The notes beneath the pieces were generated by a model. The model was not told where the DNA came from and did no database searches. It saw only the letters and a list, made by a program, of their open reading frames with translations. Below, in pieces: positions 1 through 42,519 of a stretch of 64,000 nucleotides of DNA. The first letter of the stretch is position 1. Each line of letters starts with the position of its first letter. Origin of the DNA: Candidatus Omnitrophota bacterium (GTDB lineage Bacteria; Omnitrophota; Gorgyraeia; Gygaellales; Profunditerraquicolaceae); assembly GCA_041651115.1 (NCBI GenBank), contig JBAZJY010000004.1:14114-78113 (forward strand), read 5' to 3'. The translations under genes and the position numbers were made by a program.

Positions 1-450
1 GCAAAAGAAATAAAGGATTTATGGAATATTAATCCCGATATACGTCAAGCCACCGCTGGCACCTTAATTAAATTAGGCTGGAAACCCAGCACTCCTGAAG
101 AAAAAGTAGCTTACTTAATTGCTAAAGAGGATGGCAAGGCTTTATTAGCAGATTGGGTGAATACAAAGAGGATTCTTATCGCCGACATTGGGAGTAATGA
201 TTATAGTGACTATAATAAAATAAAGATAGCGGTTGATGTTTTTGTGGCCTTGGGACAAGAAGAGATGATTGACTATTTGATAGATATTCTTAATAATTGC
301 GGAACAAAAGAAATGGCTGAAATCTATTTAAATTGTGGATATTATGAACTAGAAGAAGCAGCGATAACATGGGCGCATGATAATGGATATACGATTTATA
401 CTAAAACAGATAGTTATCCGGACGTTAGTTGGGGCAGTTGGCGTTCCGGT
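1..450 (+). other. HEAT or PBS-lyase-like helical repeats at the N-terminal part visible in the window
   Basis: The translation ...DIRQATAGTLIKLGWKPSTPEEKVAYLIAKEDGKALLADW... resembles the periodic 'd.VR..A..aLg.ig' pattern of these repeats. Confidence 0.3.
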
Positions 451-3400
451 GGTAGCTCGCCGGTTGAGTCTGTTGGATATTCACTGTTTCTCGTTGAACG
501 GTTCTTGAGGATCCGCGTCAGCAGGATAGGTTCAAAAATTTATAAGTGGGTCAGAGGGATCTTTACGGGCAGGCGGTTACAGATTAGGTCATATAGCCTG
601 CCGCAGCCATATAACGGTGGGTTTATCAGCAATATTGTGCTCAAGGCCGAACACTCCCGGCTGGGGAAATTCCTGGATATTTTTACCGCCGTCTGGAGCA
701 AGAGAGGAGATATCCCATGCTATGGACGGAGAATAGAATTCGTAGATGACATTGCCGCACGCCTGTATTACCTTACGGTTTATATGGAGAAAAGAGGAAG
801 CATCGGCCCAATCCTGAATTCTTTACAAAAAGTCAGAGATTACCCGAACAAGGAATTCAATGCCTTAAAGAAAGAACAATGGTTTATAGAGTGCGATATA
901 CCCAACACCAAAGAAGCGCGCGAGGCGTTAATCAGGATTCTGCCGGCGAATATGTTTATAATCAAAGAATTCCTTACTCCTCGTCCTCACTCCGGCAACC
1001 GCATGATGCGGATTACCATTGAGGCCGAAGCTCCTGCCGGCAGGTATACCAATATAGCTATACGCAGTATGCTGCATCAACCGCCGATAAGCGCAAGAAG
1101 GGTGCATATTGAATTGGATAAGCGCCTGATCAGCTATCTTGAGAATAATTTTATGGATAATCTTGTCAGGGCAGGAATGAGATTATCCCGAAGAGATAGC
1201 CGGCTTATCCGCGCGGCATTTACAGTCCTCTCCGGAAAGCTTAGCCTGTACAGGGAAGACCTGGAGAATTTTTACTTGAGCCATCCGATTGACGTAGCCC
1301 TGATGCTTGTCCGTCAATACGGGCTAAAGAGCATAAAATCTGTCCTGGGAGGTTTATTACACGATACAGTTGAAGAGGGCTTAAGCCTTGGGGAGATTGG
1401 GTCAATATTTGGCAAAAGCATAGCGCGTATGATTTTTTGGTTAAGCCGCAAGGGAGAGAAAAAGACTTTCCTTTCCGATTATAGGTATTTGAGAAGATAC
1501 CACCGGATGTTTATCAACAAAGCCGATATATCGCTGCAGGAAGCAATAATCGTTACCTTTATCAAAATGGCGGATAAGACGCAGAATTTAAGTAAATTGC
1601 CGCATGATGAGTTGACCCAGCTGAAGAATATTTATTCCGCCCTTGACCGTTTTCTGCCGTGTTTCCTGGAAGGCATTCCTCTTGATAAATTCCCACCTCG
1701 CCTAAGGGACAGATACTATAATGCAAACAATATATTTTTCAATACACTGATTTCTCAAGGCAGATCAATAGGGGCATTTGACGAGAATTTTATTATTAAT
1801 AAAGATAAGCTGGATTTGTATCTGGATAAAGTCATCCCTCCTGAGAAAAGAGAGAAATACGATCTAGAATTTTATCAAAATGCGCTCCTGCAAGTTAAGC
1901 AGCATTTGAGTTCACCTATCACAAATAAAATTTTCTCCGCGAAGAAAGCGATTTCTATTTTTCAACAGCAGGCTGTCAGCGGCAAAAGTATGAAGCGTTG
2001 GCTGGCCAGGCATTACCTTTTTTATGATTGCGCGCCAGCATATAACGATTATGAACATAGCGATGTCAGAATATTTGCGAGTTATATATATAAGCAAAAA
2101 ATTAAAGACATAAGAAGCACTTTGTTAAACTATGCGAAATATATAGGAAGAGGCAAGCGGATGGAACAGGTGCTTATCAGACGAAATACAAAAAAGAAGC
2201 TATATCCGCTTATCTTATGGATGGCCAGAGATAATAATATCAAGCAGGTAAGACAGAAAAGAGAAGGCAGGCTTTTTGGAGCCATTGACATTTCCGCAAT
2301 GGCTGCCGCAGACCTGCCTATATGGCCGGTGGACGAGCGAGGCAGTATTAGGCAGGACCTATTGGAATGGATATCAATAAAAGACAAGGCTCCGCCATGG
2401 GAATACTATAATGCAAAAAAGATATCCCTGTGTGAAACCCTCAAAGTCCAGCCGCAGCAATTGACTCTTGATTTCCAGTCTATTAGTTCTCCGGCAACGC
2501 AAATTAAAGAAGAAGAACTCTTGGAATTAGCGAAAGAAGGCATTTTAGAAAAGGTGATTACCAACCTTGGCCGCGGGCAATTAAGGCTTTCTCCGGAATT
2601 TTCGCGTTTTAAAGAGCACTACTACTTTGGCGGGATATGCGCCAATGAGGCAGACGGAGAAGCCCTGCTGCAGCGCGCCAGGGAGGCCATTAGCCTTTCC
2701 ATAGAGAGGATCTTTAAAAATACCGAAGTTTTCGGGCAGTTTAAGTCGGCGGTTTCCGTGGAAGACAAGTTGAAAAATACAATTATAGTTTTATTGGACA
2801 GGGCAAGGCAGGATAATTTAAGCAGTATGGAGATCTGGGAGATCGCATTGGAAATGTTACGCATGGTGATAGACGGCGATCCTGACGCGGAGATCAAACG
2901 GCAGTCAAGAGAAACAGGATTTTCTTTGTTGAATACATTGCAGCAGCAGGGAATAATCAAAGAAAAAGGCAACTCTTTGGAAACCTTGTTCAGAGTCGCA
3001 GCTTTAGGCAATACTCTGGATTTTACTAATAACCATATCGCAAGGAAATCCGCATCCGGCGAATTCATTCCGGAAGAGATACTGCTTGATCTGAACAACC
3101 CGGATTTCTTTAAGCAAAATGATATAACTAAAATTGAAAAGGAATTAAGAGAGGGAGATAAGACTATTCTTTACTGTTTTGATAATGCCGGGGAAGATAT
3201 CCTTGACCTGCCGTTTATCCGGGAAATGATAAACCTTGGCAATATTGTGTTTTTTGCAGGCAAGCCTCTGCCGGTGGCGAACGACGATACGGTTAGAGAC
3301 CTGAAAACTTTAAGGATAGACCAGCGGACCAGGCAGTTTATGGGCAGTTCCATGGATAAGATATGCGATATCGTATCTACAGGCACAAGAGGACTGGGCT

Positions 3401-6400
3401 TGGATCTGGCCCGCTTGGAAAAAGAAAGGGGTTTGGGTTATTGGTGGCCCATAGCCGATATTATTTTCTTAAAAGGCCATGCAAATTATATGACTGTCAG
3501 GCCGTTTATGCCTGTCACGGATTGCGTGTTTGTCGGCAAGGTAAAGTGGTCGCCTGAATTGAATAAAGGCGGGACAGTGAATTACGAAGACGGGGATTAT
3601 TTTGTGGAATATGTCCCTGCCAGCTCGCCTGTGAAGGAAGCTTATGAATGGGCGAGAAAATATGTTCAGGAATACCAACATAAAACAGAAAATAATGGAT
3701 CTTTTGATGGACTATATGGTAATCCCGAAAAGAAAAGAGCAGAGCTTTTGAGGCTTATAGAAAAACTCAAGAGCATAGGTAATGAAACACTTCGGAATGA
3801 GTTTAAGAATGAACTTTATAATGACATCATAAGCTCGCCGATGCAAATTGCCAAAAAGCCTTACTGCGCGGTATTCATTCCGGAATTTTCCGGCAGAAGC
3901 GCGATTATGGAAATGGTAGCGCAGGAAGTTAAATGGCAGAATATGTCATTGGTAAAATTGTGGGCTGACCATATGCGCTTTAGAATAGCGAATGGAAATA
4001 AAGACGAATTAAGCCTTAAGGAATTTTGTAATTTACCGCTCAAGGCCTATCTGGAAAATCTGTCCGTAAATAAAGGCCTTTTGGCAGGCCTGTCTTTCTT
4101 GAGCCATTATGATTCTTATATTTTCTATCATACTATGCAGCAGGCGGGTTTTGAGCTTAAGGCCGCGTTCTTTATTGATTTAAAAGAGGAAGATATTTGG
4201 AAACGCTATAATAAGAAATTATTGTCCAGCACCAGCGGCAGCGCTCATATAAACAGAGCAACTTTAGAACGGAGAATAGATAATTTTAAATATTTTTCGC
4301 TTCCGGAGAAAAAGAAACTGGAAAAAGCCGGGATAAAAGTAATTAATATTGAAGGTTTATTCAGCCGTAAAATAATAGTAGATAAAATTATCTCCGGGGT
4401 CAGGTCCGTCTCCAGCTCGCCTCTTGGATGCCGCGTATGTATCACAGGCCAACAGATAAGAAGGCTGCAGCCTGTCCTGAAGAATGTCCCCTCTGCAGTA
4501 AATTCCGGAATTAAATTAGTTATTTTTGACAACGGCAATGTAATAATGAATTTTAATTTTAGGCGGGCTGTGCAGGAACTTTCGCGGCGCTTTGCAGTAG
4601 AGCCGGGAGTCGTATCGGATTTTATAAGAAATGTTGATTGCGATAGCGGAAATCCGGTTACTAGATACGGCTCCAGGGAAATATCCAGAGAGCAATTAGT
4701 AGCTGCATTTAATCCGTGGCTGCGGAAACACAGCCGCTCGGCAGACGTGAGACAGGGCAGGAAAGTATTAAGCGTAGCCGAATTCACTGATATATGGAAC
4801 AGTATTTGGACAAGCATGAATGTAAGGGTCGTTATGCTGATGTATAGATTAAGGCAGCAGGGGTATAAAGTCCACGTACTTTCCAACTTATCCGAGCTGC
4901 ATTATGAATATGCTTCCGAAATCTATACCAGGTATCATGTTTTAGATGATTTCAAAAAAGATTTTTACTATAAGAAATACTGGAAAACTCAACCGGAAAG
5001 CTATCGTGAAGTGCTCAATGATGCAAATATGCTCCCCGGAGATACGTTGCTCATTGATGATTTGCCGCGTAACATAGAAGTAGCGCGAGCAGCCGGCCTG
5101 CATACATATTTATTCAATAAATATAATTCCCGGAATATACGCGATATCGTAAATATATTAGGAATATTTTCCAGCTCGCCGATTACTATTTTGGAACTGC
5201 AGCAGGCAGCGGAAAGGAACGCGCAACAGCCTTATGTCGGAGCGGCTTTACGCAGGTTAGCGGATATCGTCTTTAAAGTAAAAGCCCTTGGCGTAATCTT
5301 ACTCAAAAGCGGGTGGCTATTCAAAGAGCAACGGTTGAAGTTTAGCCCTGCCGATCTAGAGCGGCATCTGGGCCTGTTTTCTGACTCGGATAGGGTTTTT
5401 GTGTCTAAACTTAAAGACGGTTACGTCCTAACCAACAATAAATACTTGAGACCAGTACTTAAGGAGTGGGGCATACGTAAAGAAGAAATTAATTGGTTTA
5501 TCGGCCATTACCGCAAGGACAATATCGGAGAGATCGTACGTCAGCTTAAATATGAATATCCGGCCTGCCTTACTAAATTAGCAGGCCTTATTATGAACTG
5601 GAACCTTACGGTTTATTCGCTTTTCTTTAAACGTTCTGACTTACAAAGGGAAGGCCTGCCGGTTGATACCTTAGCCGAAGGACTTAAGCGGCTGATGAAT
5701 GATATTAACAGCGGAATAGAGGATTTTACCGGATTGGTTCCGCAGAACGCCATAGACCAGGTGAACAAAGCGGTAAAAAACCTAGAACCTGCCCTTTTGG
5801 CTTTAGAAGCAAACAAGAAGCCGGAATTTAACCTTCTTGAGTTGACTGTCTGTACTCAATTTGTTTCCGCGCTCCTGAACGTATTCAAGGAACAGAAGCG
5901 CCTGTTGGCTGAAAAGATAAAAAGCGACCGCGGAACGAATCGTTATTCCTTTGAGGCGCGCTATTTTTCTGTCTTGCAGCAGGGCTATGCCAGCGTGGGC
6001 CTCTGGGGCATCCAGGTGCTTTCCGACAGTCCTAAAAAGTATGATAATTTATTTGAATTTTTCCGTTCTATTGACCACCAGATAGATTCTGAACTGGATG
6101 ATATTGATCTTTTTGAAACAGTTAACCTACTGATCCGGCAGGTCCAGGAAGGCCTGGATAAGGAGGCTTTTGTTAAAGGCATGGATTCTCTATCCGGCAG
6201 CCTTAAGAAAGTCAAGGATCCCTATAAGATTATGGCGGCTATCCTGTTGGGCTATGCAAAGGGCTTGTTAGAGATTAACCGGCTTAAACAGGGGACTGGG
6301 CTTTTCGAATTTGCCCAGGAGATGCTGACTTTGAGAGTTAAAAACTGCTGGGGTATCATCAATACCCTTGACGGCGCCTGGGCTGAGGGGCTGCGCGGCC

Positions 6401-9400
6401 ACATCAAGAAGCGTAATGATTATCTTAAAGGTAAAACAATAAAGATCCTGCATGACTTAAAATTCAGGCATTATAAATTCGCCCGTAAGGTTCTGAAAGA
6501 GGATATTATAGACGAAGCGCATTTATCCTTTATCCGCGATCCAGAATTTGCTATGTTTGAAAAGCCCTTTGCACTATTAAATAAATCTTTTTATGAAGAT
6601 AGCACATTGAACAAACTTGAAATTGCGCGGGCGCACCAGTTATTCTCTCTTTTCTTTGATATGGTAATTATTAGTGAGTTGCGAGGTAAATTTATGATGG
6701 ATTACCGTAGGCTATTTGTGAATTCCCGTAAGCCCGGAGAAGCCCGTCTTTCCAGACAAGAAGCATTTAAGCAAACATATTTTAAATACCGCGATTCTTC
6801 CAGGGCGGTATTATCCAGGCCGGAGTTTTATTTTTATCTATTCTGGCAGGCGGCCTTTATCCCGGTGCATACTAAAGAAGATGATAAGCCGGTTAATCCC
6901 GTATTTTCAGCCCTGAACAGGTATGTCTTATCCGGCCAGATTAAAGAAAAAAGATATAGTAGGCTTACCCGGCCGGAAATGCCGAAATTAAGCGAAACGC
7001 AAGCAGCAGAATTTTCCGCAATAGGCGAGCTTTATAAGGAATGGTCGCAGGAGTATGGGATTACCAGGGCCGGGCCGCAAGCCAGCTCGCCGCTTGATTC
7101 TTTGGATTTCCCCGTGGTTATCATCGGCTCGTCAGACGGCGGGAAAGAAGCGATCCCCGCCATTTTAAATCCTGTTTTGAACAGCAAGCCCGATTTGGGT
7201 TTCAGCTGCATTCTTGCCGCCCATAATTTTAATACCAACTACTATCCTTATAAAAAGATCTCAAGAATAATATTGCAGAATATAGCAGATACCATCCAGG
7301 CAGACGTTACTGAAATATCCGATGGTATGCCGGTAGAAAATAACAGGATATATATTGTCCCTCCGATAAGCAATATTTCGCTTAGCAAGGAAGGAAAATT
7401 TGAAGTTTCCGGGATAAGGATTGATTTTATTAAACGCAATCCCAGTAAGAACATCATTAACATTGATTTCTTACTGGATAGCGCAGCCGAGTTCTTCCGA
7501 GATAGGCTGATTGCGGTTATAGCCAGCGGAAACGGCAGCGATGGCAGCAGAGGGTGTTCTTATGTGAAGCTTTATGGAGGCAAGATTTGGGCACAGCGCG
7601 ATGCGATAGAAAAGGCCATGCCTACCAGTGCCCTCAAAACATGCCTGGTTGATGAAATAAAGTTATCCAGTTCTCCGCTAAAAGCAAAAAACGCGATCTT
7701 CTGGTTATTTTTCGCAGCAATGATCACCTTAGCCTTTAAGCAGGCAAGGGCGCAGGAATGGAGCGCTTATCTTTTGGATAGTAACCATAAAGCCAGGGTA
7801 AGAAGCCTTAACTTGACTCACAGCGACATTGCCATAAGCGTGGCTCGGCTTTGGTCAGCGCAGACAGATATTACAACCGTTGATATACAAGACAGCAAGA
7901 AAAAGTATCACATTAATTACATGAAATATGCGGATGCGCTCCAAAAGATAGAAGAAGATCTTGCTGCCGGGAAGAAATTGATCGTAAATATGAATTTCGG
8001 CTCTTACCTTGATTTTTATTCTTTTGAGCATGCCATTTTGGACCTCTACCTTAAATATCCGCATACCTTAATCCTGGTTGCTCCCGCAGGTAACGGTAAT
8101 ACCGATTATCCGATGTATCCGGCAGCCTATGATTTTGTCTTTTCAGTTACCAGTGTTACGGCTGGCTCCGGCTGCTATGTTAAGACAGGCTATGGTAATT
8201 ATGGCGCTTTCGTGGACATAGCTGCCATTGCGCAATCAGAAGAAGGAATGAGCAAGAAAGAGAAACAATATATGCAAGCAACCTGTTTTGCCGCGCCGCA
8301 GGTCGTGGGATTGCTGCTTGAAATATTCGCCGTCAATCCCGTTTTAACTAAAGAAGAAGCCGTAAGGATCATCCAGGATACCGCTGATCCGATAGAAGGT
8401 TACGATTTTAAAGTAATGAATCCTGAGCGCGCTATTAACGAAGTTAAAGCAAGGCTGCTTGCCGCCAGCTCGCCGGTTGTTAGGTATGGCAGCCAAATTA
8501 CGGAATGCCGATTATTGAGAGAAGAGGAAGCAAGGAGCAGGCTTAAACAAGAATTTAATTTTGATTATCCGCTTGATTTAATGAAAACAAATAGGCCTGG
8601 CGGAGCAGCGCCTCGCCTAGCTTCAAATATTTATGCAAAATTAAGCGCCGTAGAGAAGGAATTTCCCGGTTTTAAAGTACCGAAAAAATGGCTCGGGTAT
8701 AACATTAGCAGGATTATTAATAATACAAAACGCAAACTGCAAGAACAGGTAGATAAGCCAAGGCGAGAACAAGAAGCGGTATTAAGGCTTAAGGCAGAAC
8801 TTGGTTTTATTTATCCGGACTCATTAAAACCAAGTGACAGACCAGGGGGGAGTAACTCTATTTCTGCTTCAAAAGTTTATGAAAAGCTAAGCGCTGTAGA
8901 AAAAGAGTTTCCCGGTTTCAAGGTACCTGCAAAATGGATCGGAAAATGGGATGTTTCAACTCTTGTAGAGAGAGTAAGAGACAGGATGTCAATAAAGGGC
9001 AAAGATGCAGTTAAGAGATTAAAGGACGCATTTGATTTTAATTATCCTGTTGATTTAGTGCCTACTCATCGTCATTATTTTAGCGCCACAGTTATTTATA
9101 TAAAATTTCTTGAAGTTAACAGCGAATTGCCTGGATGTAAGATATATAAGTCACTATTGAATTTATCTTCGGAGGCGATCATTTTTAAGTTATCTGCGAA
9201 TATGGCGGGAAAAACTTATGATAAGAAAATTGAATATATTAAATTACTCAATAAGGTATTCGGTTTCGCCTATGAAGAATTATCGCCTCGTATCAGGGCT
9301 GAATTTAAGCCAAGAACGATATTCCGTCGCCTTGTTTATATAGAAAAACGGTTATTAAAAGAGCCTGCCCTGAGAATACTCGGGATCAGATGGAAGAACA

Positions 9401-12400
9401 TACCATATAAGGTTATCTTTAAGAGATCCGCAGATGCCGATTTGCAGGATTATCTTGACGGATTGGCCGCGGGCAAGTTCACCCCTGTATCAACAAGCAA
9501 GGGGATAATAAGGTTCAAGATAAACATCAGCGAAGAAGAGGCAATAAAGAGGATTGCGGATGAATTTGGTTATATCTATCCATATAGCTTTCCTGTGAGG
9601 ATTTGGCCGGGCCAGAAGCGTTATTCGCCGCCTAGTAGTATCTATACTAAGTTAACGAAAATAAGAAAAATGTCTCCGGATTCTGAAATTTCCCTTTGGC
9701 TGCTTGAATATGGCCTGGATACTGCTATCAATAAAATCAAAGGTATAAATGACCGTAAAGCCGCAGCGCTAGAGTCGCGAGAACGCAAAAAAGCGCTGAT
9801 AGAACAATTTAAATTAGGTAAACGCTATTTTTCGCATTCTTTAGAAAAGGTAGCATATAAATCTTCGCTTCAGAATGAAAAAGAACAAAGAAAAGCGGAA
9901 AACAATAGGCAGAAATTAGAAAAAAAGAAGGCCAGGGAAGAAGCTAAAGAGGGAGCCAGGATAAAGAGAATGCTAATTATTAAAAAATACAACCTGCCCA
10001 TTTCATATTCTAACCGCAGCCTTGCTTTTATTGAAAAGCGGGTCCAAGAGTTAAAGGACAAAGAGTATAATTCTGCAAGTTATGAGAACTATGTAAATAA
10101 AATAATGCATAGATATTATCCCGGCCGCAATATAGACATAGAAATGCTTTGGCAAAAGATGAAGCAAGGAGAAGGAATGGCAAGAAAGACCATTATCGAA
10201 TACGTGCTTAATCTTGTTATAGAGATAGAACAAGGCAATAAAAGTAGGAAAGAGATCTTGAGGTCTGTGTATAAACTTCCTTCGCATAAACAGTATACCC
10301 GCGACGATTATATACAGGAAGGAAATTTGGCCGCGCTTCAGGCGTTGGATAAATGGAATCCTGCTTGGGGAATGAGCCTTGAATCATTCCTTAGGGATGA
10401 GATAGGGTCTGCGGTTAAGAGGTCTAGGGCGACAAAAATTAGAGATGACAAAAGGGCTATCTCCCTTCAACAACCCAAGGGTAATAAATCTAATAGCGGA
10501 AATTTTCGCACCGTAGAAGACCATCTTGCTAATCCGGATGATGAGCAGTATTTGCCTGGACCGGCTGAAAGGTTTGAGTTTATGTCTAAAAAGATACGCA
10601 GTAATGATTTCTTATTTCTTGCCGAGGCCGGATACCCTATTAACAAGGGTTTACTTATCAGCAATGAAGAAAAAAAAGCTTTTGCTAAAGCCTTCAACAA
10701 CCATCTAATAAACAGCGGAATGTTTAAAGATACTCCTTTTGATATTGCTGTATTGATCATCGGCAGTATGGGCAATATTGGGATCGCCCGCAGGAAAATA
10801 AATCCCAGCGACTTAAATCTTATTGTTCTTTCAGACGTTCATCAAAGTCAGTCTATAGATATACATCGCAGGCAGTGTCGGGAGGTAATGGCTAGGTTCA
10901 AAGACTGGATCGGAAGCGGTGATATCTATCATATGACTGAAGGCGGCGAAAGATTTACGCTTCAGGTAGAAAAGGATAGCACCGTTGAGTCTTCCAAATT
11001 GCTGTCATTGCTTCAAAGCTATGGCTTAAAGAGTAAGGTATCACTTGAATTAATTCCTCTTGACGGCAATATTAACGTTGTCAACAGGGCAGCTTGTCGC
11101 AGCCATATCCAAATAATGGAATACTTCTACCAACTAGGCGCAAACGGCATCCTTATTTTTGAGTCTAAAGAAGGATTTGCGGAAAATATACTGGATAAGC
11201 TATCAAAAGGTCTTGAAGCTGACGCCGTTGCATACGAACCGATTGCCGCCAAGTATATGCTGGATTTCTGCCTGAGGCAGATTGATAAGGTCGTCCGTCA
11301 GCAGGAAGCCGCGGTTGTCCAAGGCAGCTCGCCTCTCGGCTGCGTCGTGGCAACAAGGAGCAGCGCCTTTAATGTTCTTGCTAGCTCGCCGGTTGAGCGT
11401 TCCCGGCCGCAGAAGATGAGCCTCAACGCGTTCTTGGAGCGGGAAAACAACGAGTTATTAAAAAAATCCGTTAAGCCTTTAAGCAGGCTTAGATGGTCGG
11501 TAAGGGCGGTTGACTGGATATTCGCGTTTGTAAAATACCCGTTACTGTCCAGCGCTTCTCTGGGAACTTTGCTGCATAGCTTAGGAAAACTTGACCTCAC
11601 GATTTTTGGCAGCCATATCGGTTGGAAAATGGTCATCGGAGTTATCGGCAGCGCCTTGTTTATCGTTACGGTAAGACTGGCGCAGGTTTTTATCTTTAAA
11701 TATTTTTATCCTGAAGTTTCTCTTCCCAAATGGCGGCGCTTTATTCTTCCGCTGATAATGCCTGCTCCTATAGGCGGAGAATGGCTTATGTTCAGGATAT
11801 TAAGTCCGTTATCTGATGTAAAGGAAATGAAACTGCTGCGGGATATAGAATATTCTCTGCAAAATATTATTTATAGATCAGGGAAATCATTCTCCGCGCG
11901 GATAGAAGAATTATCTGAGGGATGCGTCCCGGAGATCGCCAGAAAAATACTGGATTATGGAAAATCAAGCATCGGGGAAGATTATCTCAAGCGCGCAAAT
12001 CGCAGATTGATCAGCAGTAGAAAATATATCTTGAAGCTTTTGAAGAGCAATTTCTCGGAAGACCCCAGGGTAAGGAAAGAATCACATTCTGATTTTATTA
12101 TAAAACTACCTACCGGATTTTCTCCGGAGATGGAGCGACAACTAGAGGCGTTCAGGAAAGAACATGAAAAAAACAGCGGAGAAGCCAGTTCGCCTGCCAT
12201 ATACGAAACTGACGACGGCTACCGGGTATATACGTTAGCCCTCAATCATAATTCCTATGTTTCTATAGCGGAATTAGGCGCTAATATCGTAGACCTGGTA
12301 ATCGCAGGCAAGCGCATAGTCTGGCACAAAGGCTTTGACCCTGCCGCAGGAAGAGTCACGCGTTTAAAAGATCCGGTTACCGGAGCTAATCTTCCCGGCG

Positions 12401-15400
12401 GCATACCTTTTATGTTCCCTTGGACCAGCCGCATTGATAAATCGCTAGCGTGCTTTTTTGGCAGAGCGATTGATCTTACTGATCCGAGCCTGACATTAGT
12501 GCGCCGCGTCCCGGATGCCAAAACCGGGCCGAATGTACTGCACGGGATGACCGATAAAGTAAAATGGCTTAATGAAAAAGTGCATCCGGAATTTATCAAA
12601 TTCTCCTGTTTTACGGGCGCATTCAATGAAATATCCAGCCGCTTCGGCTTGCTTAAGGCCGAGCTTGTTTTTCGTCTGGAGAAAAATACGCTTACGGTAC
12701 ATACAACCGTAGCCAATAAAGACACAAAATTACTTATTTTTAGCTTTGGCCATCACCCATTTTACTTTCTGCCCGATATCCGGCAATGGCAGGCGCAGGT
12801 CCCGGCAGAGATGTATTGGCAGACAGATGCGGCGCAAGTCCCGCTTTACCAGCAGCCGCTCGCAGTAGAAGGCCCTACTGACTTGCGTAAGCTTACTTCT
12901 ATAGACCGGCCGTTTGAACAGGGCTATACCGGGCTTAGAGTTGATAAGGGAGTAATAACTTCGTATTTCCATAATGATAATACCAAAGAAACTTTAACCG
13001 TTTCTCAAGGCTCGGGGTATACAAACCTAATGTTTTGGGTACCCTTAGGTAATCCTAATATTCCTGAAGGAGTAGCCAGTATCCAGCCGCTGGTTTCCGT
13101 AGCTAACGCTATTAATCTCTTTAGTCATGCCAGGCAATGCCGGGATCCTGTAATTGCTAAATATGCCAATCCGGTTATTCTCTTCCCGGGTGAGCAGATC
13201 AGTGTATGGTGGAGAGTAAGTCTTGACGCCGCTATCAGTTCACCGGTAACAGAAAGAAAAATCCTGTTGGCAAAAAGGGAAGAACGTAAAAGAAAAGAGT
13301 TATATAAGGAAATGGAAGCCAGGGGAATAGATATAGATGTTCCTCCCAGCCTGATTAGGCACCACAGTGTTACTACCGTCATTAAAAGATTAGAGAAGGA
13401 GATGGCAGCCGGTATCGAGAAAGAGAATAGAAGGAAATTAATCGCCAATCAGGCAAAAAAAGAACTCGAAGAGAGTCACGGGATTGTTTTGCCTGCCGGG
13501 TGCCTGCGCAGAGGCAAGAACTACGTTGATCCGGTAAAATTACTTAATAAAATAAAAGGAATAAAAACAGAGCTAAAACGCAGGGGCATTATTAAATATA
13601 CCATTACCAAGAAGCAGCTTTTCAATAATAATGCCGAACGCATAGTAGAGATCATCCAGGCGCGCTCCGCAGCAGGCAAATACCAATCGTCGTATCGCAA
13701 GGAATCCGTAAGCAATAAAAGGATTAAGGTGCGAAAATTTACCGAGGCAGAATACGCAGCCAAGCTTATTGATGATTTTCAGTTTGATTATGGAAATTCA
13801 AAAAAGATAAGCTTGGCCTCAAATCTGTATATAGCTTTGAGTAAAGTAAGAGAAGTTTTTCCTGATTTAAGAAGAGAAGAGCTTCCGGAAGGATCAATCT
13901 GGTACGGCCAAGCTAAAATCGTAGACGCAATTTCCAAGAAAAGAAATGCCCGGGAAAGGGGGAGCAAGAGAGAAGACGCTGAAGCAGCATACCAGAAGAA
14001 ACTCTCAGAAGAGTTCAATTTTATGTATCCGGATGGGCTGCCTGAAAGTAATCAGCCGGGCAACGGCCACTGTATAAGTGCTTATAAGGCGTACAGGGCT
14101 TTAATAAAGGTAAAAAGCCTACTGCAGGAAGCGGGATTTGAATTACCCGATGTAAACACATTTACATATATGTTGGGATGTACCCCGGAGTTTATCAGCA
14201 ACAGCTTAATAAAGACGCTCAAATTCAGGGAAAATAAAGCAGCCGAAGAAGAGAAGAATTCAGAGGCCAGGGAAAAGCTTTTTATTGATTTTGAGTTTAA
14301 CTATCCGCAAGATTTAGGGCATTTTGGCAGCGGGTATCCTGTTATTTCCGCATCGCGGTTATGCGCCAATCTTATAAAAGTAAAAAAAGAATTACCTGAT
14401 TTTAATTGGAAAAACCTCCCGTTAAAAGTGCTTATCAGGTATCCCTCAAAGATCATCATTTACCTGAAGTCAGTGCAGCAAAAGAAAGACCGGCAAGAAG
14501 CTGTGCGAATAAGCCTGAATAGGGACTTTGATATAACTAACCCCGAAACATTAAAGATTACTGCTTCCAAGGCGCGCAGTAATTTACTCGCCATTAAGCG
14601 GATATTAAAAAAGCGAAGACTGGCTCATCTACAAGTGCCGAAAAATATGCTTTCGCTTGCTCCGGCTACAGCCGCCAAATTGATCAGGGCGCAAGAATTG
14701 AGGAGGAGAGAAAGAAAGATGGCCGGGATTGCGTTGAAAGCGGAAAAACAAAAACTGATCAATGAACATCAATTACCCAAGGCCTACTTTTTACGCAGTA
14801 TATCTTTTATAAAAGAGATGATCAAACACGGGCCGCCGCGCCTGGATGCCTGTTATGGCGGTTATAACCGTTATGTCAATTATATCTTCAGTCATCCGTC
14901 TAAAGTTGAGGAAATGGAATTAGAGCTTCTTTGGCAAAAGATGAAAAAAGGCAACAACTCGGCATATTGCAAGTTGGCGGAATACTTCCTGCCGGTAGTG
15001 ATTGAAATGGTAGAGGGAGAAACCAAAAAAGGTATTCTGTCGCGGCCATCCAATTATTCGGAAGAACACCAGAAGGAAATGGACGATTATGTCGGCGAAG
15101 CCAATTTAGCTATGCTGGAAAGCATAAAAGAATGGGAACCTGGTCCAGGCAGCACGCTTGAAGCTTTTGTAAAAGAAAAGATCAAGGCTGCGGTCAATAA
15201 GTTAAGGTCTAAGAAATATGCCGAGAAAAGACGGAACGACGATAATATAGATTCGGCAAGGCGGCAGATTTTAGAATTTTCATCCCAGGATTACAGTCAG
15301 CATCCGGATAATGCCTTAGAGCGTTTTGAGATGATGAAAAAGGTAGTAGCGAGCATAAAGAAAGGTAATTTCGGCTTTCTGGCTGATGCCGGCTACCCTA

Positions 15401-18400
15401 TAAACCAGAAAGCGCTCTTTAGCCTTACGGATAAACTATCTATTAAGCAGGAACTGCGTAATTATCTCATCCGCAGCGGGATATTCAGCGCTATGCCGCT
15501 CAGGTTTGCGATGTGGATGATTGCCAGTATGGGCCAGATCGGGCTTGCGCGTAAGAACTTAAGCGACCTTAATCTCCTCATCATCTCTGATTCGCATCAG
15601 GAATCCTCTATGAACGAACATCAGGCCATTTGCCGTGAATCCATGGTTAATCTTAAAGAGCTCGTTGGAACCGGCAAACTCATTGAACAGAGGATAGATG
15701 GTAAAAGGCTGGTATTGGAAGTCGGAAAGGATAATTCTTATAAGAATAATAAACTTTATCAATCTGAATTTATATCTTTACTTAAAGACCATAAGATAGG
15801 AAGCCAGGAACGCGGGTTCGCTTCCATAGAGCTGGTTTCTTTGAACGGCAGTATTGAGCCCGGCAATAAAGCTCTATACCGCGGCGGTTTCCATGTCGCA
15901 GAAAACATCTATCAGATGGGTTCAAACGGGATCCTTATTTTAGAATCGGAAGACGGCGTTGCCCAGGAAATGGCCCAGGGGCTGCATCAGCAGTTACAGG
16001 CCGATCATAATGAATATCTCTATTTTATATGCAATTACCAGCTGGATTTCTTTGCCAAGCAAGTAGAAAAAGTAAGGCAGCAACAGGATGCGTTAATCGC
16101 GGCAAGCAGCTCGCCGGCAGATATCAGCAAGGCATACATTAAATATTTAGAGAATCCCCAAGCCATGATTGACGAAGATAAAACCCTGGTCCTTGCCTTT
16201 TGCCATAACAACACGGATATGGACGGTATGGCTTCCCTCATCGGACATGTTTATTATTGCCGGGAGATTGAAAGTAAGGATATCCTCATAATGCCGGTTA
16301 TCCCCCAGCAAGGGGCGCTTCCGTGGAATATAGTGCATATTTTGCAGCGCGGCGGGATCAATAAAGATGACTTCTTTTGTTTTGAAGACATAAAAAGTCA
16401 TCTTGAGAACATCGCAGCCAATCCCGCATTCATGGAACGCATATTGCTTGACCTGCTTGACCATAATGACCCGGAAGAAAAAAGCCTGGAGCAATTTGCA
16501 ATCCGCAATATCATTGACCACCATTCCCTGGAAAGGGAATTACCTTATAGGGGAGTACGCAATATCCAAAGGATAGGGGCAACTGCCACGGCCGTTACAA
16601 TGAATTATTTTAACCGCGGGATAGCTATGCCGTATGGCATAGCTTATATCCTGCTTGCCGCCATCTGCCTGGATACGGACAGTTTTTGTTCCAATACCGT
16701 AACCCGCAGGGACGGCAAGGTGGTCCAGGAATTGGCGCGCCTGGCTAAAATAGACGCAAATAAGCTGTTTGACGGCGTTTCAACAATTTCATATTGCACG
16801 CGCGCCTCTACCTGGGGAGAATGGCTTTATGACGTTAAAGAATACGGGGCGTTGATTTTCAGGCAAACAAAAATAAACGATATGGATGAATTAAAGAGCA
16901 TTACCAGGAGCATGATCATCAGCCATATCAAAGAGGAAGTGGAGAGCCGCCCTGAGATTCGCGCTCAAGTCTGGATGGTAACAAGCATGGATCAGAAATC
17001 GTACGGCAGCATGGTTTTTGTATATGCTAAGTCCGGAGTAGAATATGGCAACAGGATCATCAGGGCGATATCGGATTTAGAAATAACAAAGGCAGGCCTG
17101 GTTGAGGCGTTATGGATGAAGCCGGCCTTGAAAATGATCCAGGCGGGGATAAAAAAGGCAGACTTCAGATATATCGTGAATGTATCCGGAATGGGCCTTA
17201 GCGCCGATAACGGAAGGCTTAAGGCGTTCAGGCAGCTTGCCGCATCTTTGATCAAAAAGAACCATTTATCATTGAAAAATAACGGCCAGTTGAATATAAA
17301 AATTAATTCCCATCGCATCGCAAAAATCCTTTTAAAGTCCCTTTCGCAAGACGGTATAAAACTTGATTTATCTACGATTATGCGGATGCAACGCGATATT
17401 GACGGGGTCGTTATGCTTTATTTTTCCGGCTGCGGCTCGCGCAAGATGTGGAAGGATGCCGTGCAGGAAGTCATAAAAGAAACCATAAATAAGACGAGCT
17501 CGCCGGTGGCTGCGGAGATGTATTGGCTGCGGGATGCGGTATGGGTGATGGGCGGAGAAACTCTCTCTGCCTTGTTTAACGATAATAAGGAAACCTTTAA
17601 AAAGATATATGCGGTGGTAATTGCCTGGTGGCTTCAGGGGGTGCTTGCTTATGCGCTGGCTCGTATTTTTGGCGGGGATATCTTCACTGCCTGGGGCATA
17701 TTCCTGGCCGGGCATATGTTAGATTTCGTCCTGAATATTCTTCGTTCCAAGGGAGCCCGCGCGCCGCCGCTTAATATGCTTATCGCCGCTTTAATCGCAT
17801 CTGTCAGCCTGGCTATGGGTTGGTCAACGATCAATCTCTTATCCTGGGCTGTACAGGCAGGAGTTGCCCTTTTCTTCCTATCTCTTTCCTTAGTGTCTTC
17901 TTCAGTATGGCGCCGCCGCACGGTTGTTCTATTCAGCCTTATTCTCGTTTTAGCCTCTGTAAAAATCATTGATAATTCATTGCGTTATTACCGTATGGAC
18001 GATGAAGCAAAGGCCATAGCGCACAGTTATTCACTTCCAATAATACCGCAGGAGCAACACGGAACATACTGGCAGGATGAATTTAACAACATGGATCAAC
18101 TGCTTGATTTTATTTCCGACCCCGAGGTTATCAATGTTCCTTCTTTTGAGGCGCGCGAGCAGGCTTATCTGGCAAAGGTAAGGCTACTGGTGAACGCCCA
18201 AACCGTCTTTGCCGCGGATAAAATATATGCAGGGCAGCGATTGGGGCAGCTCGCAGCTAACTATCAGGAAATAGTTTCATTACCTGATACGGCATTCTGG
18301 TTTCGCTGCAGCGAAGCAGAAATGTTGACCGTGCTTTTACGCAACCGTATGGATGTTGCCTCTCGCCAATTATTATCAGCAGACGTGGATAAATTATTTT

Positions 18401-37192: not shown

Positions 37193-38410
37193 GTGAAAAA
37201 ATATTTTTTTCCTGCTATTGTGTTGATTGCTGCGATCCTTATCGGGCTTTCCTGCAAGCCGGCTCCATCCCCTAAAGCATACATTAAAAAACTTAAAAAC
37301 AATCATTATCAACTGGTCGTAGACGCTAAGCCGTTTGTCGTCAAGGGCGTTTGCTATAATCCCGCGCCTATCGGCCAGAACCACGAATATGACTGGTGGT
37401 CTGATCCTAATAAGCCCTGGCTTGTAGACGGTAAATTGATGCAGGAGATGGGTATTAATGCCATCCGCGTTTATCAGCCGGGCGAAAACCCGGAAAGCGT
37501 AAAGCAGGTGATCCGCGACCTGTATAATCTTTACGGCATCCGCACGATACTGGGCAGCTGGCTGGGCTTCTGGGAATATCCCTGCCCGTTTTATGCCGAT
37601 AAGGATTTTCAAGACAGAGTGAAAAAGCAGGTATTGGAAATGGTCGGTTTATATAAAGACGAGCCCGGGGTCTTGATGTGGATCCTGGGCAATGAAAATA
37701 ACTATTCTTTTGCCGGCCGGGTCAATGCCTGGTCGTCGGAGGAAATAGACAAGGAACCTGATCTTTCCAAGCAGCGGGTGATGCGGGCAAAGATCTATTA
37801 TTCTTTTGTAAATGAGATCGCCAAAGAAATCCATAAGCTTGACCCAAATCATCCGGTTGCCCTTGGTAACGGCGAACTTGTGGGGCTTGATATCGCTTCC
37901 GGGCTTTGCCCGGACATTGACCTGATCGCCTGCATAATTTACCGGGGCAAGAGTTTCGGCAATATTTTTAATTCCCTGCGTACCACGTTTGACAAACCGA
38001 TACTATTGAGTGAATTCGGCGCCGACGCTTACGACGCCTCCAAGAATAAAGAAGACCAGAATATGCAGGCCTTCTTTTTAGAGGCGCAGTGGCGGCAGAT
38101 CTATAAAAACCTTGCTGGAAATAAGGAAGGGGCGGGAAATTGCATCGGCGGAGTAATGTTTGAATGGACTGATGAGTGGTGGAAGCACAATGAATCGGAC
38201 CCGTCCGCGTGGATAATCCATGACACAGGCTCTTACTGGTCTAACGGCAGCTACTACCTTGACATACAGGCCCCGGATAATAAAAATATGAACGAAGAAT
38301 GGTTCGGCATCGTAGCTTTATCTGAAGAGCAGGAAAGCGGCTTAAATAAGCGCACCCCCCGCAAGAGTTATTACGTGATCAGGGAACTTTGGAAGGAAAA
38401 ATCAAAATGA
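37193..38410 (+). CDS. Clan GH-A glycoside hydrolase lipoprotein, a paralogue of 33605-35914
   Basis: The lipobox is ...LIGLSC. VKGVCYNP...WILGNENNYSF...LLSEFGADAYD give the same catalytic NE and (S/T)E(F/Y)G motifs. Confidence 0.6.
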   Translation: MKKYFFPAIVLIAAILIGLSCKPAPSPKAYIKKLKNNHYQLVVDAKPFVVKGVCYNPAPIGQNHEYDWWSDPNKPWLVDGKLMQEMGINAIRVYQPGENPESVKQVIRDLYNLYGIRTILGSWLGFWEYPCPFYADKDFQDRVKKQVLEMVGLYKDEPGVLMWILGNENNYSFAGRVNAWSSEEIDKEPDLSKQRVMRAKIYYSFVNEIAKEIHKLDPNHPVALGNGELVGLDIASGLCPDIDLIACIIYRGKSFGNIFNSLRTTFDKPILLSEFGADAYDASKNKEDQNMQAFFLEAQWRQIYKNLAGNKEGAGNCIGGVMFEWTDEWWKHNESDPSAWIIHDTGSYWSNGSYYLDIQAPDNKNMNEEWFGIVALSEEQESGLNKRTPRKSYYVIRELWKEKSK

Positions 38411-39966: not shown

Positions 39967-39972
39967 AAATAC

Positions 39973-40001
39973 TTGACTTATATCTTTATTAGTAGTATAA
40001 A
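39973..40001 (+). promoter_or_regulatory. Sigma-70-like promoter TTGACT-N17-TATAAA upstream of the ROK regulator gene
   Basis: TTGACT at 39973-39978, a 17-nt spacer, and TATAAA at 39996-40001. Confidence 0.4.
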
Positions 40002-40063
40002 GAATTCATAAATTATTGTCCCTAAAATTTATTAGTGCCACGGAGAAAGGCCTTATCCCGGCT

Positions 40064-41299: not shown

Positions 41300-41318
41300 A
41301 ATATAAAAGGGAGCGGTA

Positions 41319-42506: not shown

Positions 42507-42519
42507 CAGATTTTTTTAA

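What the first reader, a model, noticed from the sequence alone, without database searches (positions are those of the whole stretch)
7930..8466. Subtilisin-like module with Ser changed to Cys and no His motif, one of several catalytically degenerate modules
The S8 'GTSMAAP' serine motif reads ATCFAAP, and the region where the HGTHV histidine motif should lie has no match. Other modules are degenerate too. HAD module 2 has FDxDGV changed to FILEGV. HAD module 1 lacks the second Asp. RpiB copy 1 has the catalytic Cys changed to Thr and keeps His-Asn, while copy 2 keeps Cys but has His-Asn changed to Glu-Leu. Several modules therefore look like pseudo-enzymes with scaffold or binding roles, or like decaying captured genes. 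The RpiB pair could be complementary half-sites.
Basis: partly seen in the sequence, partly recalled or inferred. Interest (0 to 1): 0.55.

Follow-up and report, generated by a model that had tools for sequence, protein, structure and literature searches.

The report
Cysteine-nucleophile subtilase inside giant polyprotein

Summary
The window's first 29.7 kb is the C-terminal 9,854 codons of one Candidatus Omnitrophota gene, called at 23,923 aa on its source contig. It is built of about 30 enzyme-like modules separated by a fixed SSP[VLIAM] delimiter (29 copies, about 2 expected).

Module 9 (nt 7669-8466) is a compact S8 subtilase. The Ser-to-Cys change is real: ATCFAAP, Cys codon at 8284-8286, against Ser in 158 of 165 homologue domains and Cys in none. 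The claim of "no His motif" is wrong.

A 64%-identical orthologue in a second SSP-delimited giant keeps Asp, His, Asn and Cys. dN/dS is at most about 0.08.

Of the other "degenerate" modules, only HAD-2 has truly lost its nucleophile (Asp to Ile). HAD-1 has the motif of the active phosphatase YihX. The RpiB pair splits the residues exactly as LacA and LacB do, giving one composite site. The CheB-like, M23 and RPE modules are intact.

Verdict: a conserved thiol variant of a subtilase, probably active. The pseudo-enzyme and decay reading is largely rejected. Its substrate, possibly the delimiters, is unknown.

The parts
1..29721 (+). C-terminal 9,854+ codons of one giant gene. The frame is open from window base 1. 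The gene is called at 23,923 aa and runs to the end of its 99.6-kb source contig.
7669..8466 (+). Module 9: compact S8 subtilase-fold module, 266 aa, bounded by SSPL (7669-7680) and by the next SSPV (8467-8478).
   Evidence: Pfam PF00082 at 32.5 bits against a cut-off of 21.8. AF2 pLDDT 86.2, pTM 0.87. Foldseek to subtilisins at E 6e-13, TM 0.73.
7690..7737 (+). Hydrophobic segment NAIFWLFFAAMITLAF directly after the delimiter, followed by KQARA|QE. It is a signal peptide or a signal anchor, and it is present in the orthologue too.
7765..7788 (+). Asp motif AYLLDSNH (catalytic Asp37 at nt 7777-7779).
7816..7842 (+). His motif THSDIAISV (catalytic His51 at nt 7819-7821).
8080..8100 (+). Oxyanion-hole motif APAGNGN (Asn142 at nt 8092-8094).
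8278..8298 (+). Nucleophile motif ATCFAAP (Cys206, TGT, nt 8284-8286). Pro is retained at Cys+4.
4414..5172 (+). Module 6: YihX-type HAD phosphatase-like module. Motif I IFDNGNV is at 4522-4542. The nucleophile Asp is present and the second Asp is absent, as in YihX.
24676..25506 (+). Module 22: beta-phosphoglucomutase-like HAD behind a hydrophobic anchor. Motif I IFILEGVIADT is at 24850-24882, with the nucleophile Asp changed to Ile. It is catalytically dead as a HAD.
21592..22350 (+). Ribulose-phosphate 3-epimerase part of module 19. HWD, DVHLM and QADGG are intact.
22384..22746 (+). RpiB/LacA-like copy 1. It is N-terminally truncated and has Thr at the Cys position (22471-22500). It keeps KHNN (22591-22611) and GGRHQRR (22684-22704).
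22762..23217 (+). RpiB/LacB-like copy 2. It keeps SDHGG (22783-22797) and ICTTG (22954-22968). His-Asn is changed to Glu-Leu (23050-23070) and GGRHQRR to STEERNR (23173-23193).
7084..7668 (+). Module 8: CheB-methylesterase-like, with Ser (GSSDGG), His and Asp (GSDG) retained.
25507..26277 (+). Module 23: M23 peptidase with HxxxD and HxH intact. The twin-arginine-like motif NRRDFIG (25528-25548) lies 6 residues after the delimiter.
28591..29577 (+). Module 28: Sec-type signal (ending AQA|QQ) right after the delimiter, plus a conserved HEITH (28957-28971). It is a putative secreted metallopeptidase.

Best explanation
Module 9 is a compact member of the subtilase (S8) fold, and the catalytic nucleophile has been exchanged from Ser to Cys. 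The rest of the machinery is intact: Asp37, His51 and the oxyanion-hole Asn142.

It is one module of a Candidatus Omnitrophota 'multi-enzyme' giant protein of at least 23,923 aa. The modules of that protein are separated by a fixed SSP[VLIAM] delimiter.

The most likely mechanism is that His51, oriented by Asp37, activates Cys206. Cys206 attacks a peptide (or ester) carbonyl to form a thioester acyl-enzyme, which Asn142 stabilises and which water or an amine then resolves. That makes it a thiol-subtilase acting as a peptidase or a transpeptidase.

The module carries its own hydrophobic N-terminal segment right after the delimiter. It therefore probably works at or beyond the cytoplasmic membrane once it is released or anchored.

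The wider claim of 'several degenerate modules' collapses. Only HAD-2 is dead. HAD-1 is YihX-type. The RpiB pair is a fused LacA/LacB-like pseudo-heterodimer with one composite active site.

Shown: the residues, the fold, conservation and purifying selection. Inferred: catalytic activity, topology and substrate.
For: 1. Cys sits on the Ser221 column. No homologue among 165 aligned domains has Cys there.
2. Asp37 and His51 align with the Asp and His motifs of a compact S8 subfamily and occupy the canonical secondary-structure positions in a confident model. Foldseek's top hits are subtilisins and the engineered S221C peptiligases.
3. The orthologue L002 is 64% identical and keeps AYLLDSNH, HSDIA, APAGNGN and QATCFAAPQV.
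4. pN is 0.21 against pS of 0.74, so dN/dS is at most about 0.08. Identity is 76% within 7 residues of the catalytic residues and 63% elsewhere.
5. Cys206 has no conserved Cys partner, so it is not a structural disulfide.
6. S8-Cys is the best conserved of the five modules the two giants share.
7. Other modules keep their catalytic residues, which argues that the gene encodes working enzymes.
8. Thiol-subtilisin chemistry is established: a thioester intermediate that favours aminolysis (PMC7921005).
Against: - There is no biochemical evidence.
- Only two sequences of this Cys clade were found. Two metagenome scans found none, and the word-index protein search found none.
- Engineered S221C subtilisin that keeps Pro225 is a poor catalyst, and module 9 keeps Pro at Cys+4.
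- Pseudo-proteases can also be under purifying selection.
- dS is saturated, so the dN/dS value is only approximate.
- The topology prediction rests on hydropathy and charge inspection only.
- The module scores far below NCBIfam equivalog cut-offs, so no specific subfamily function transfers to it.
Confidence: 0.6

Rival explanations
1. Module 9 is specifically the maturation enzyme of the polyprotein. It recognises the SSP[VLIAM] delimiters and cuts, or transpeptidates, the giant chain into about 30 or more separate proteins. This would be analogous to the Cys-for-Ser chymotrypsin-fold 3C proteases of viral polyproteins.
For: - There are 29 delimiters against about 2 expected, and 25 in the orthologous giant.
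- Orthologous modules start exactly at the delimiter and are shuffled in order.
- Tat-like and Sec-like signals sit directly after delimiters and are conserved, which implies that free N-termini are generated there.
- Compact S8 modules recur in other Omnitrophota giant fragments that also carry SSP delimiters: P0018 has 11 SSP in 1,796 aa and P0007 has 6.
- West-Roberts et al. proposed that S8/C39 domains cleave the giants but had no cleavage sites.
- S8-Cys is the most conserved shared module.
Against: - Module 9 has its own signal or anchor and is probably extracytoplasmic. A Tat-exported M23 module would require cleavage in the cytoplasm.
- The S8 modules of the other SSP-bearing giants use Ser, so Cys is not needed for that role.
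- 59% of the gene (about 14,000 aa) lies outside the window and may hold other proteases, such as C39.
- Cleavage itself has not been shown, and no Tat HMM hit was obtained.
- The co-occurrence sample is biased because it was found through an S8 search.
Confidence: 0.2
2. One reading: module 9 is a pseudo-enzyme, a catalytically inert subtilase fold kept for binding or scaffolding. The Ser-to-Cys change would be one step of inactivation.
For: - S221C in subtilisin drastically lowers activity when Pro225 is kept, and Pro is kept here.
- Gly at -2 is changed to Ala.
- A conserved C-terminal GxLGxG segment of the compact subfamily is deleted.
- At least one other module (HAD-2) is dead.
- Inactive subtilase homologues are known (own knowledge: the CspA/CspC pseudoproteases of Clostridioides difficile).
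Against: - All three other catalytic residues are retained, and the four motifs are the most conserved parts of the module across 36% divergence.
- Loss of function normally frees Asp, His and Asn to drift.
- Cys is the one substitution that preserves nucleophilic catalysis.
- 'No His motif', the main support for this view, was an error of coordinates.
Confidence: 0.17
3. The module is a decaying captured gene, or the Cys is a sequencing or assembly error in a metagenome contig.
For: - Cys TGT is one substitution away from the Ser codons AGT and TCT.
- There is a single metagenome assembly.
- Inside a polyprotein, only nonsense and frameshift mutations are purged by selection on downstream modules, so missense decay is conceivable.
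Against: - The same Cys in the same QATCFAAPQV context occurs in an independent MAG from a different assembly.
- dN/dS is at most about 0.08.
- The frame is open for 71 kb.
Confidence: 0.03

Closest known systems
Subtilisin/thermitase-type S8 peptidases (clan SB), e.g. AK.1 protease 1dbi, thermitase 1thm, subtilisin BPN'
   Same: Same fold (Foldseek E about 1e-12, TM 0.7). Same order Asp-His-Asn-nucleophile. The motifs NxSxG, AGN and GT[S]xAxP are recognisable.
   Different: The nucleophile is Cys, not Ser. The Asp-His loop is very short (14 aa against about 32). No I9 propeptide was detected. The module is embedded in a giant multi-module protein behind a hydrophobic segment. Identity is only about 17-20% to solved structures and 30-40% to the best database homologues.
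Engineered thiol-subtilisin, subtiligase, peptiligase and omniligase (S221C variants; PDB 7am6, 7am7, 5ox2, 8h7o)
   Same: The same Ser-to-Cys exchange at the same position. These are the top structural hits. The chemistry is documented: a thioester acyl-enzyme that is more prone to aminolysis (PMC7921005).
   Different: Those enzymes are man-made and need P225A/N or another small residue to recover activity. Module 9 is natural and keeps Pro at Cys+4, and has Ala in place of Gly at -2. Ligase activity here is pure conjecture.
Compact S8 modules of other Omnitrophota giant proteins (P0007 = MCF7892147.1, P0011 = MCF7877498.1, P0013 = MDP2940627.1, P0018 = TRZ94487.1)
   Same: The same compact architecture: VVFILDS, then 8-25 aa, then HGxIV. 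They are embedded in partial giant ORFs from Omnitrophota MAGs. Some of these ORFs carry SSP delimiters.
   Different: All use Ser (GTSFAAP). Most lack the preceding hydrophobic segment. They are 24-30% identical to module 9.
LacAB galactose-6-phosphate isomerase (PDB 4lfk) and the RpiB homodimer
   Same: Copy 1 keeps the LacA-side residues (His-Asn, Arg-His-x-x-Arg) and copy 2 keeps the LacB-side residues (Asp-His, Cys, Thr). LacAB has one composite site where RpiB has two.
   Different: Here the two halves are fused in one chain downstream of an RPE domain. Copy 1 lacks the first beta-alpha-beta unit. No tandem of this kind appeared among the 120 best homologues. The dimer-like packing was not resolved by AF2 (pTM 0.55).
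E. coli YihX alpha-D-glucose-1-phosphate phosphatase (PDB 2b0c, 8pno)
   Same: HAD-1 motif I, IFDNGNVIMNFNF, resembles YihX IFDLGNVIVDIDF. Motif II (VLSN) and motif IV (DD) are shared.
   Different: The motif III Lys aligns with Gln in module 6. The match is E 1.7e-13 over the C-terminal half only.
Omnitrophota giant proteins: 'Archaeovorins' (West-Roberts et al. 2023) and 'multi-enzyme metabolic clusters' (2026 preprint)
   Same: Omnitrophota origin. Length above 10 kaa. Many unrelated Pfam domains, including HAD, HD, methyltransferase and peptidases. TM segments. An adjacent sugar ABC importer.
   Different: Neither paper, as far as I read them, describes a delimiter motif, module shuffling or a Cys-nucleophile S8.

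Membership tests
Peptidase S8 (subtilase), clan SB | Subtilisin alpha/beta fold and significant match to the family profile | tested here: met
   PF00082 at 32.5 bits against a cut-off of 21.8. AF2 model pLDDT 86. Foldseek E 6e-13 to subtilisin variants.
Peptidase S8 (subtilase), clan SB | Catalytic Asp and His in the order Asp-His-(Asn)-nucleophile | tested here: met
   Asp37 and His51 align with the subfamily motifs. His aligns in 12 of 13 HMMER alignments. Both are conserved in the orthologue.
Peptidase S8 (subtilase), clan SB | Oxyanion-hole Asn | tested here: met
   Asn142 lies in AGN. That column is Asn in 160 of 165 domains.
Peptidase S8 (subtilase), clan SB | Serine nucleophile (GTSxAxP) | tested here: not met
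   Cys206 (ATCFAAP), also in the orthologue. The module is therefore a homologue of S8 by descent and fold, but it is not a serine peptidase.
Peptidase S8 (subtilase), clan SB | Peptide-bond hydrolysis | not testable with these tools
   Needs an enzyme assay.
RpiB/LacAB sugar-phosphate isomerases | Complete set of pocket residues (Asp-His, Cys, Thr from one subunit; His-Asn, Arg-His-x-x-Arg from the other) | tested here: met
   Met only by combining copy 2 (SDHGG, ICTTG) with copy 1 (KHNN, GGRHQRR). Residue roles are taken from PMC3755991.
RpiB/LacAB sugar-phosphate isomerases | Dimer-type packing that brings the two half-sites together | tested here: inconclusive
   The AF2 tandem model has pLDDT 82 but pTM 0.55, and the GGRHQRR/linker region has pLDDT below 50. 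No coordinates were available to measure distances.
HAD phosphatase superfamily (module 6, HAD-1) | Motif I nucleophile Asp, motif II Ser/Thr, motif IV acidic pair | tested here: met
   IFDNGNV, VLSN and LIDD are present. The second Asp is absent, as in active YihX. The motif III Lys aligns with Gln.
HAD phosphatase superfamily (module 22, HAD-2) | Motif I nucleophile Asp | tested here: not met
   IFILEGVIADT against beta-PGM FDLDGVITDT, so Asp is changed to Ile. The fold match is kept (TIGR02009 E 7e-13, below its cut-off).
Omnitrophota giant multi-enzyme proteins | Length above 10,000 aa, Omnitrophota genome, many unrelated enzyme domains in one ORF | tested here: met
   23,923 aa. MnmG is 100% identical to a Ca. 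Omnitrophota MAG protein. At least 15 different Pfam families are present.
Proteolytically processed polyprotein with a cis-encoded protease (viral type) | Recurrent short junction motif between functional units | tested here: met
   29 SSP[VLIAM] sites against 2.07 expected, with a maximum of 7 in 500 shuffles. All are in frame and specific to the gene. The motif is conserved in L002.
Proteolytically processed polyprotein with a cis-encoded protease (viral type) | Demonstrated cleavage at the junctions by the encoded protease | not testable with these tools
   There is only indirect support: Tat-like and Sec-like signals directly after delimiters.

The most novel reading that the evidence does not exclude
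The Cys-subtilase is a natural counterpart of thiol-subtilisin and serves as the maturation enzyme of a bacterial polyprotein. It would recognise the SSP[VLIAM] junctions, form a thioester, and either hydrolyse or transpeptidate. That would release, or re-attach to the envelope, dozens of independent enzymes from one chain of more than 23,900 aa, some of which are then exported by Sec or Tat. This would be a cellular analogue of viral polyprotein processing by Cys-for-Ser 3C proteases, and it would supply the missing cleavage map for Omnitrophota giant proteins.
Probability: 0.2. Interest if true: 0.9.

Novelty: new variant of a known kind. Interest (0 to 1): 0.62.

Why it matters
I found no report of a natural Ser-to-Cys exchange in the subtilase fold, with the rest of the triad conserved and under purifying selection. 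The only counterparts I found are engineered thiol-subtilisin and peptide ligases. If it is active, it is a second case, after the chymotrypsin-fold 3C proteases, of a serine-protease fold recruited to thiol chemistry, and a possible natural template for peptide ligases.

It also changes how Omnitrophota giant genes should be read. The modules look like working enzymes, including a LacAB-type single-site isomerase fusion, not debris. The fixed SSP[VLIAM] junctions, followed directly by conserved Sec-like and Tat-like signals, give explicit and testable cleavage points. The main paper on these genes says such points were lacking.

Tried and rejected
1. The word-indexed protein search with module 9 found nothing. 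Only the exhaustive HMMER search did.
2. MAFFT over all 147 mixed S8 segments put His40 (DSNH), not His51, into the His column. I rejected this because it is an artefact of the long Asp-His loop in most S8s. The compact-subfamily alignment, HMMER's local alignments and the helix start in the AF2 model all favour His51.
Two metagenome scans found no further Cys-clade members.
4. NCBIfam gave no Tat-signal hit for the M23 module, so 'Tat-like' rests on motif inspection of two orthologues.
5. AF2 of the RpiB tandem did not resolve the inter-domain packing (pTM 0.55).
6. A nucleotide-level role for the delimiter (AGCTCGCCG) was considered. The motif is strictly in frame and gene-specific. The fixed AGY-then-TCN pattern is explained by common ancestry plus selection for Ser, because the two Ser codon families cannot interconvert without a non-Ser intermediate. 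The third-position bias (TCG, CCG) remains unexplained.
7. Structural disulfide role for Cys206: rejected, because there is no conserved partner Cys.
8. The aldose-epimerase module had no PDB sequence match, so its catalytic residues were not audited. The DHH, methyltransferase and ARMT1 motifs (DHH, DAGCGTG, DNAGED) were seen by eye only.
9. Literature searches for natural Cys subtilases and for 'Omnitrophota polyprotein' returned nothing relevant.
10. I could not reach the N-terminal ~14,000 residues of the gene. The product is over the 5,000-aa look-up limit, and flanks are capped at 10 kb.
Full report
CONTEXT. The finding (nt 7930-8466) lies inside one enormous open reading frame. In the window the frame is open from base 1 to 29721, which is 9,854 codons from the first possible start. 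An exact-protein look-up of a downstream gene placed the window on ENA metagenome contig ERZ27247363:k141_2001242 (99,565 bp). There the same gene is called at 23,923 aa and runs to the contig end. MnmG, encoded downstream in the window, is 100% identical to a protein of an NCBI 'Candidatus Omnitrophota' MAG, and its nearest relatives are all Omnitrophota. Downstream genes are ordinary chromosomal ones: PilZ, a sugar ABC importer, GH-like genes, ROK, LacI, ribonucleotide reductase, MnmG and a Pho/Pst cluster. This is therefore one of the Omnitrophota giant genes described by West-Roberts et al. 2023. It belongs to the 'multi-enzyme metabolic cluster' class of a 2026 preprint.

MODULAR ANATOMY. 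The translated ORF contains 29 SSP tripeptides, where composition predicts 2.07 (mean 2.05 and maximum 7 in 500 shuffles). Each is followed by V, L, I, A or M. They cut the visible part into 30 modules. Pfam assigns these modules to unrelated families: HD_4, ARMT1-like, HAD, CheB methylesterase, Peptidase_S8, Sigma70_r2 (weak), aldose epimerase, DHH, circularly permuted ATP-grasp, ribulose-phosphate 3-epimerase, RpiB (twice), HAD_2, Peptidase_M23, CBM48 and methyltransferase.

THE S8 MODULE: WHAT IS CONFIRMED. HMMER alignments to solved subtilases (AK.1 protease 1dbi, thermitase, KerA, subtilisin Carlsberg) put ATCFAAP on GTSMAsP, with Cys on the catalytic Ser, and PAGN on AAGN, the oxyanion Asn. 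An exhaustive HMMER search of 1.84 billion representatives gave 3,836 hits at E of 1e-3 or better, with the best at 8.5e-17. In the 165 aligned domains of the best 150, the nucleophile column is Ser 158 times and Cys never. The substitution is real and unusual.

THE S8 MODULE: WHAT IS NOT CONFIRMED. The Asp and His motifs were not missing. Thirteen homologue alignments extend to module residue about 50, and 12 of them place His (followed by Gly) on His51. Those homologues define a compact S8 subfamily: VVVFILD[ST], then 8-25 residues, then HG[SDG][IL]V. Module 9 fits it as AYLLDSNH, then 14 residues, then THSDIAISV. A mixed alignment of 147 S8 segments instead pulled His40 into the His column. 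I regard this as a gap-penalty artefact. In the AlphaFold2 model (pLDDT 86.2, pTM 0.87) strand 1 ends at Asp37, a helix starts exactly at His51, and the long helix starts at Thr205/Cys206. These are the positions of Asp32, His64 and Ser221 in subtilisin. Foldseek's best PDB matches are subtilisins, led by the engineered S221C 'peptiligase' variants (E 6e-13, TM 0.73). The catalytic set is Asp37 (nt 7777-7779), His51 (7819-7821), Asn142 (8092-8094) and Cys206 (8284-8286, TGT).

CONSERVATION. A scan of species-representative genomes found one close relative, L002, on a 345,694-bp contig of a MAG labelled Planctomycetales (64% identity, E 1e-108). All 20,750 bp fetched are one open frame with 25 SSP[VLIA] delimiters, so this is a second giant of the same kind. 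Its S8 module keeps AYLLDSNH, HSDIA, APAGNGN and QATCFAAPQV, and it has the same hydrophobic segment right after its delimiter. Nei-Gojobori counts give pN 0.21 and pS 0.74. Synonymous sites are saturated, so dN/dS is at most about 0.08. Identity is 76% within 7 residues of the four catalytic residues and 63% elsewhere. Cys206 has no conserved Cys partner. An assembly error, a fresh mutation and free decay are therefore all excluded. The simplest reading is selection for a Cys-based active site.

THE OTHER 'DEGENERATE' MODULES.
- HAD-1 (module 6). Its best solved relative is E. coli YihX, named in the PDB as alpha-D-glucose-1-phosphate phosphatase. YihX's own motif I is IFDLGNVIVDIDF, against IFDNGNVIMNFNF here. 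The missing second Asp is therefore a subfamily trait. Motifs II and IV are present, and the motif III Lys aligns with Gln.
- HAD-2 (module 22). Against beta-phosphoglucomutase, FDLDGVITDT has become FILEGVIADT, so the nucleophile Asp is Ile. This module is dead as a HAD enzyme, and it sits behind a strongly hydrophobic segment.
- RpiB pair. Copy 2 aligns to RpiB at E 2e-31. It keeps SDHGG and ICTTG, but it reads QEL where the consensus has EHN and STEERNR where it has GGRHQRR. Copy 1 keeps KHNN and GGRHQRR, has Thr at the Cys position, and lacks the first beta-alpha-beta unit. The LacAB structure paper lists the single LacAB pocket as His96, Asn97, Arg130, His131 and Arg134 from LacA, plus Asp8, His9, Cys65 and Thr67 from LacB, and contrasts this one site with the two sites of RpiB homodimers (PMC3755991). 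The two copies divide the residues in exactly that way. In the PDB search copy 1 matched LacA (4lfk_A) and copy 2 matched LacB (4lfk_B). AF2 of the tandem folded both domains (pLDDT 82) but did not fix their mutual orientation (pTM 0.55). None of the 120 best RpiB homologues has such a tandem.
The CheB-like module has Ser, His and Asp. M23 has HxxxD and HxH. RPE has H-x-D, DVHLM and QADGG. By eye, the DHH, SAM-binding and DUF89 motifs are also present.
- Net result: one dead module among those audited.

IS THE CHAIN CUT AT THE DELIMITERS? This was not shown, but several observations point that way. Five modules are shared between the two giants (identity 64, 52, 49, 39 and 35%), and they occur in a different order. 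Orthologous modules begin exactly at the delimiter even though their upstream neighbours differ. Hydrophobic segments cluster within 3-37 residues after delimiters in modules 9, 16, 18, 22, 23 and 28. The M23 module starts SSPIRNYNRRDFIG... and its orthologue SSPVSRRIFLIKST..., which is close to the twin-arginine consensus. Module 28 and its orthologue start with Sec-type signals ending AQA|QQ and ASA|QI, and they share an HExxH motif. A Tat signal is expected to work only at a free N-terminus (established knowledge of the Tat pathway). No Tat HMM hit was obtained, however. The delimiter is strictly in frame and gene-specific. All 15 AGCTCGCCG copies are in-frame delimiters, and the 10,812 residues of downstream proteins hold only one SSP. 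West-Roberts et al. state that missing information on cleavage points blocked their analysis, and they speculate that S8 or C39 domains cut the giants. The 2026 preprint does not discuss cleavage, linkers or motifs at all.

WHAT THE CYS-SUBTILASE DOES. Compact S8 modules recur in other Omnitrophota giant fragments: P0007, P0011 and P0013 are from Omnitrophota MAGs, and P0018 is from an unclassified bacterium. Two of these fragments are SSP-rich: P0018 has 11 SSP where 0.6 are expected, and P0007 has 6. That makes the S8 module a candidate maturation protease. Three points argue against it. Those relatives use Ser. Module 9 has its own signal or anchor and is probably extracytoplasmic, whereas Tat export of M23 would need cytoplasmic cleavage. 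And about 14,000 residues of the gene are unseen. Three of the five shared modules (S8-Cys, M23 and the HExxH module) are peptidase-like and carry signals, which fits the published idea of secreted effectors against prey envelopes equally well. From engineered enzymes it is known that S221C gives a thioester that favours aminolysis, and that activity is low unless Pro225 is replaced (PMC7921005). Module 9 keeps that Pro, and both orthologues have Ala instead of Gly at -2. My confidences are as follows. Best explanation, an active thiol-subtilase with substrate unresolved: 0.6. Delimiter-processing enzyme specifically: 0.2. Inert pseudo-protease: about 0.17. Decay or sequencing error: about 0.03.

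NOVELTY AND SCORE. The module is a homologue of family S8 by profile, fold, Asp, His and Asn. It fails the defining 'serine nucleophile' test, so it is a new variant of a known kind. The two literature searches I ran for natural Cys subtilases found no report of one, and the searched library is incomplete. Interest is 0.62. The exchange itself would moderately surprise protease specialists. The context (fixed junctions with conserved export signals, module shuffling, a LacAB-type fused isomerase) makes the open question of how giant bacterial proteins are processed directly testable.

Noticed in passing
window 157-29721 (delimiters at nt 454, 1909, 2485 ... 29578; full list); L002 1-20750: A fixed SSP[VLIAM] junction separates all modules: 29 copies against about 2 expected in the window, and 25 in the orthologous giant. 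It is strictly in frame and absent from neighbouring genes. Codons are biased: AGY in 29 of 29, TCG in 20 of 29 (TCG is about 11% of Ser codons overall), and CCG in 24 of 29. I did not find it described in the two Omnitrophota giant-gene papers I read.
   Followed up: partly
window modules 9, 14, 21, 23, 28 against L002 modules 14, 18, 11, 1, 10: The two giants share five modules at 35-64% identity, but in a different order. Orthologous modules start exactly at the delimiter, which suggests shuffling by recombination at the junctions.
   Followed up: partly
window 25507-25560 and 28591-28730; L002 protein positions 194 and 2383: Export signals sit directly after delimiters and are conserved between orthologues. 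The M23 module has twin-arginine-like NRRDFIG / SRRIFLIK. Module 28 has Sec-type signals ending AQA|QQ / ASA|QI. No Tat HMM hit was obtained.
   Followed up: partly
window 28591-29577 (HEITH at 28957-28971): Module 28 has no Pfam hit, but it has a conserved HExxH (HEITH; HEAVH in the orthologue) behind a signal peptide. It may be a novel secreted metallopeptidase.
   Followed up: no
window 11326-11382 (aa 3724-3742); L002 protein positions 3300-3312 and 5912-5915: Tiny 'modules' of 19, 13 and 4 residues lie between adjacent delimiters. The 19-aa one begins SSPLGC, like module 6. They may be scars of module excision.
   Followed up: no
window 8467-11325 and 13237-16107: Modules 10 and 14 (953 and 957 aa) are paralogues, 34% identical over 479 aa (E 2e-80). 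They have internal F-x-F-x-YP repeats and a weak Sigma70_r2-like region that scores below Pfam's cut-off.
   Followed up: partly
window 1-156 and source contig k141_2001242: The giant ORF continues off the left edge of the window. The full call is 23,923 aa and itself hits the contig end, so the true gene is longer still. A 161,957-bp NCBI contig carries the same MnmG and may hold the whole gene.
   Followed up: partly
window 29762-43545: Immediately downstream of the giant gene are PilZ, a sugar ABC importer (SBP plus two permeases), GH2/GH72-like proteins, a ROK kinase and a LacI regulator. This matches the published association of Omnitrophota giant genes with carbohydrate import systems.
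   Followed up: no
L002 (CAZYCL010000002.1, 277832-298581): The orthologous giant sits in a MAG labelled 'uncultured Planctomycetales bacterium', whereas the window's organism is Omnitrophota by MnmG. Either the label is loose or this gene type spans PVC phyla.
   Followed up: no
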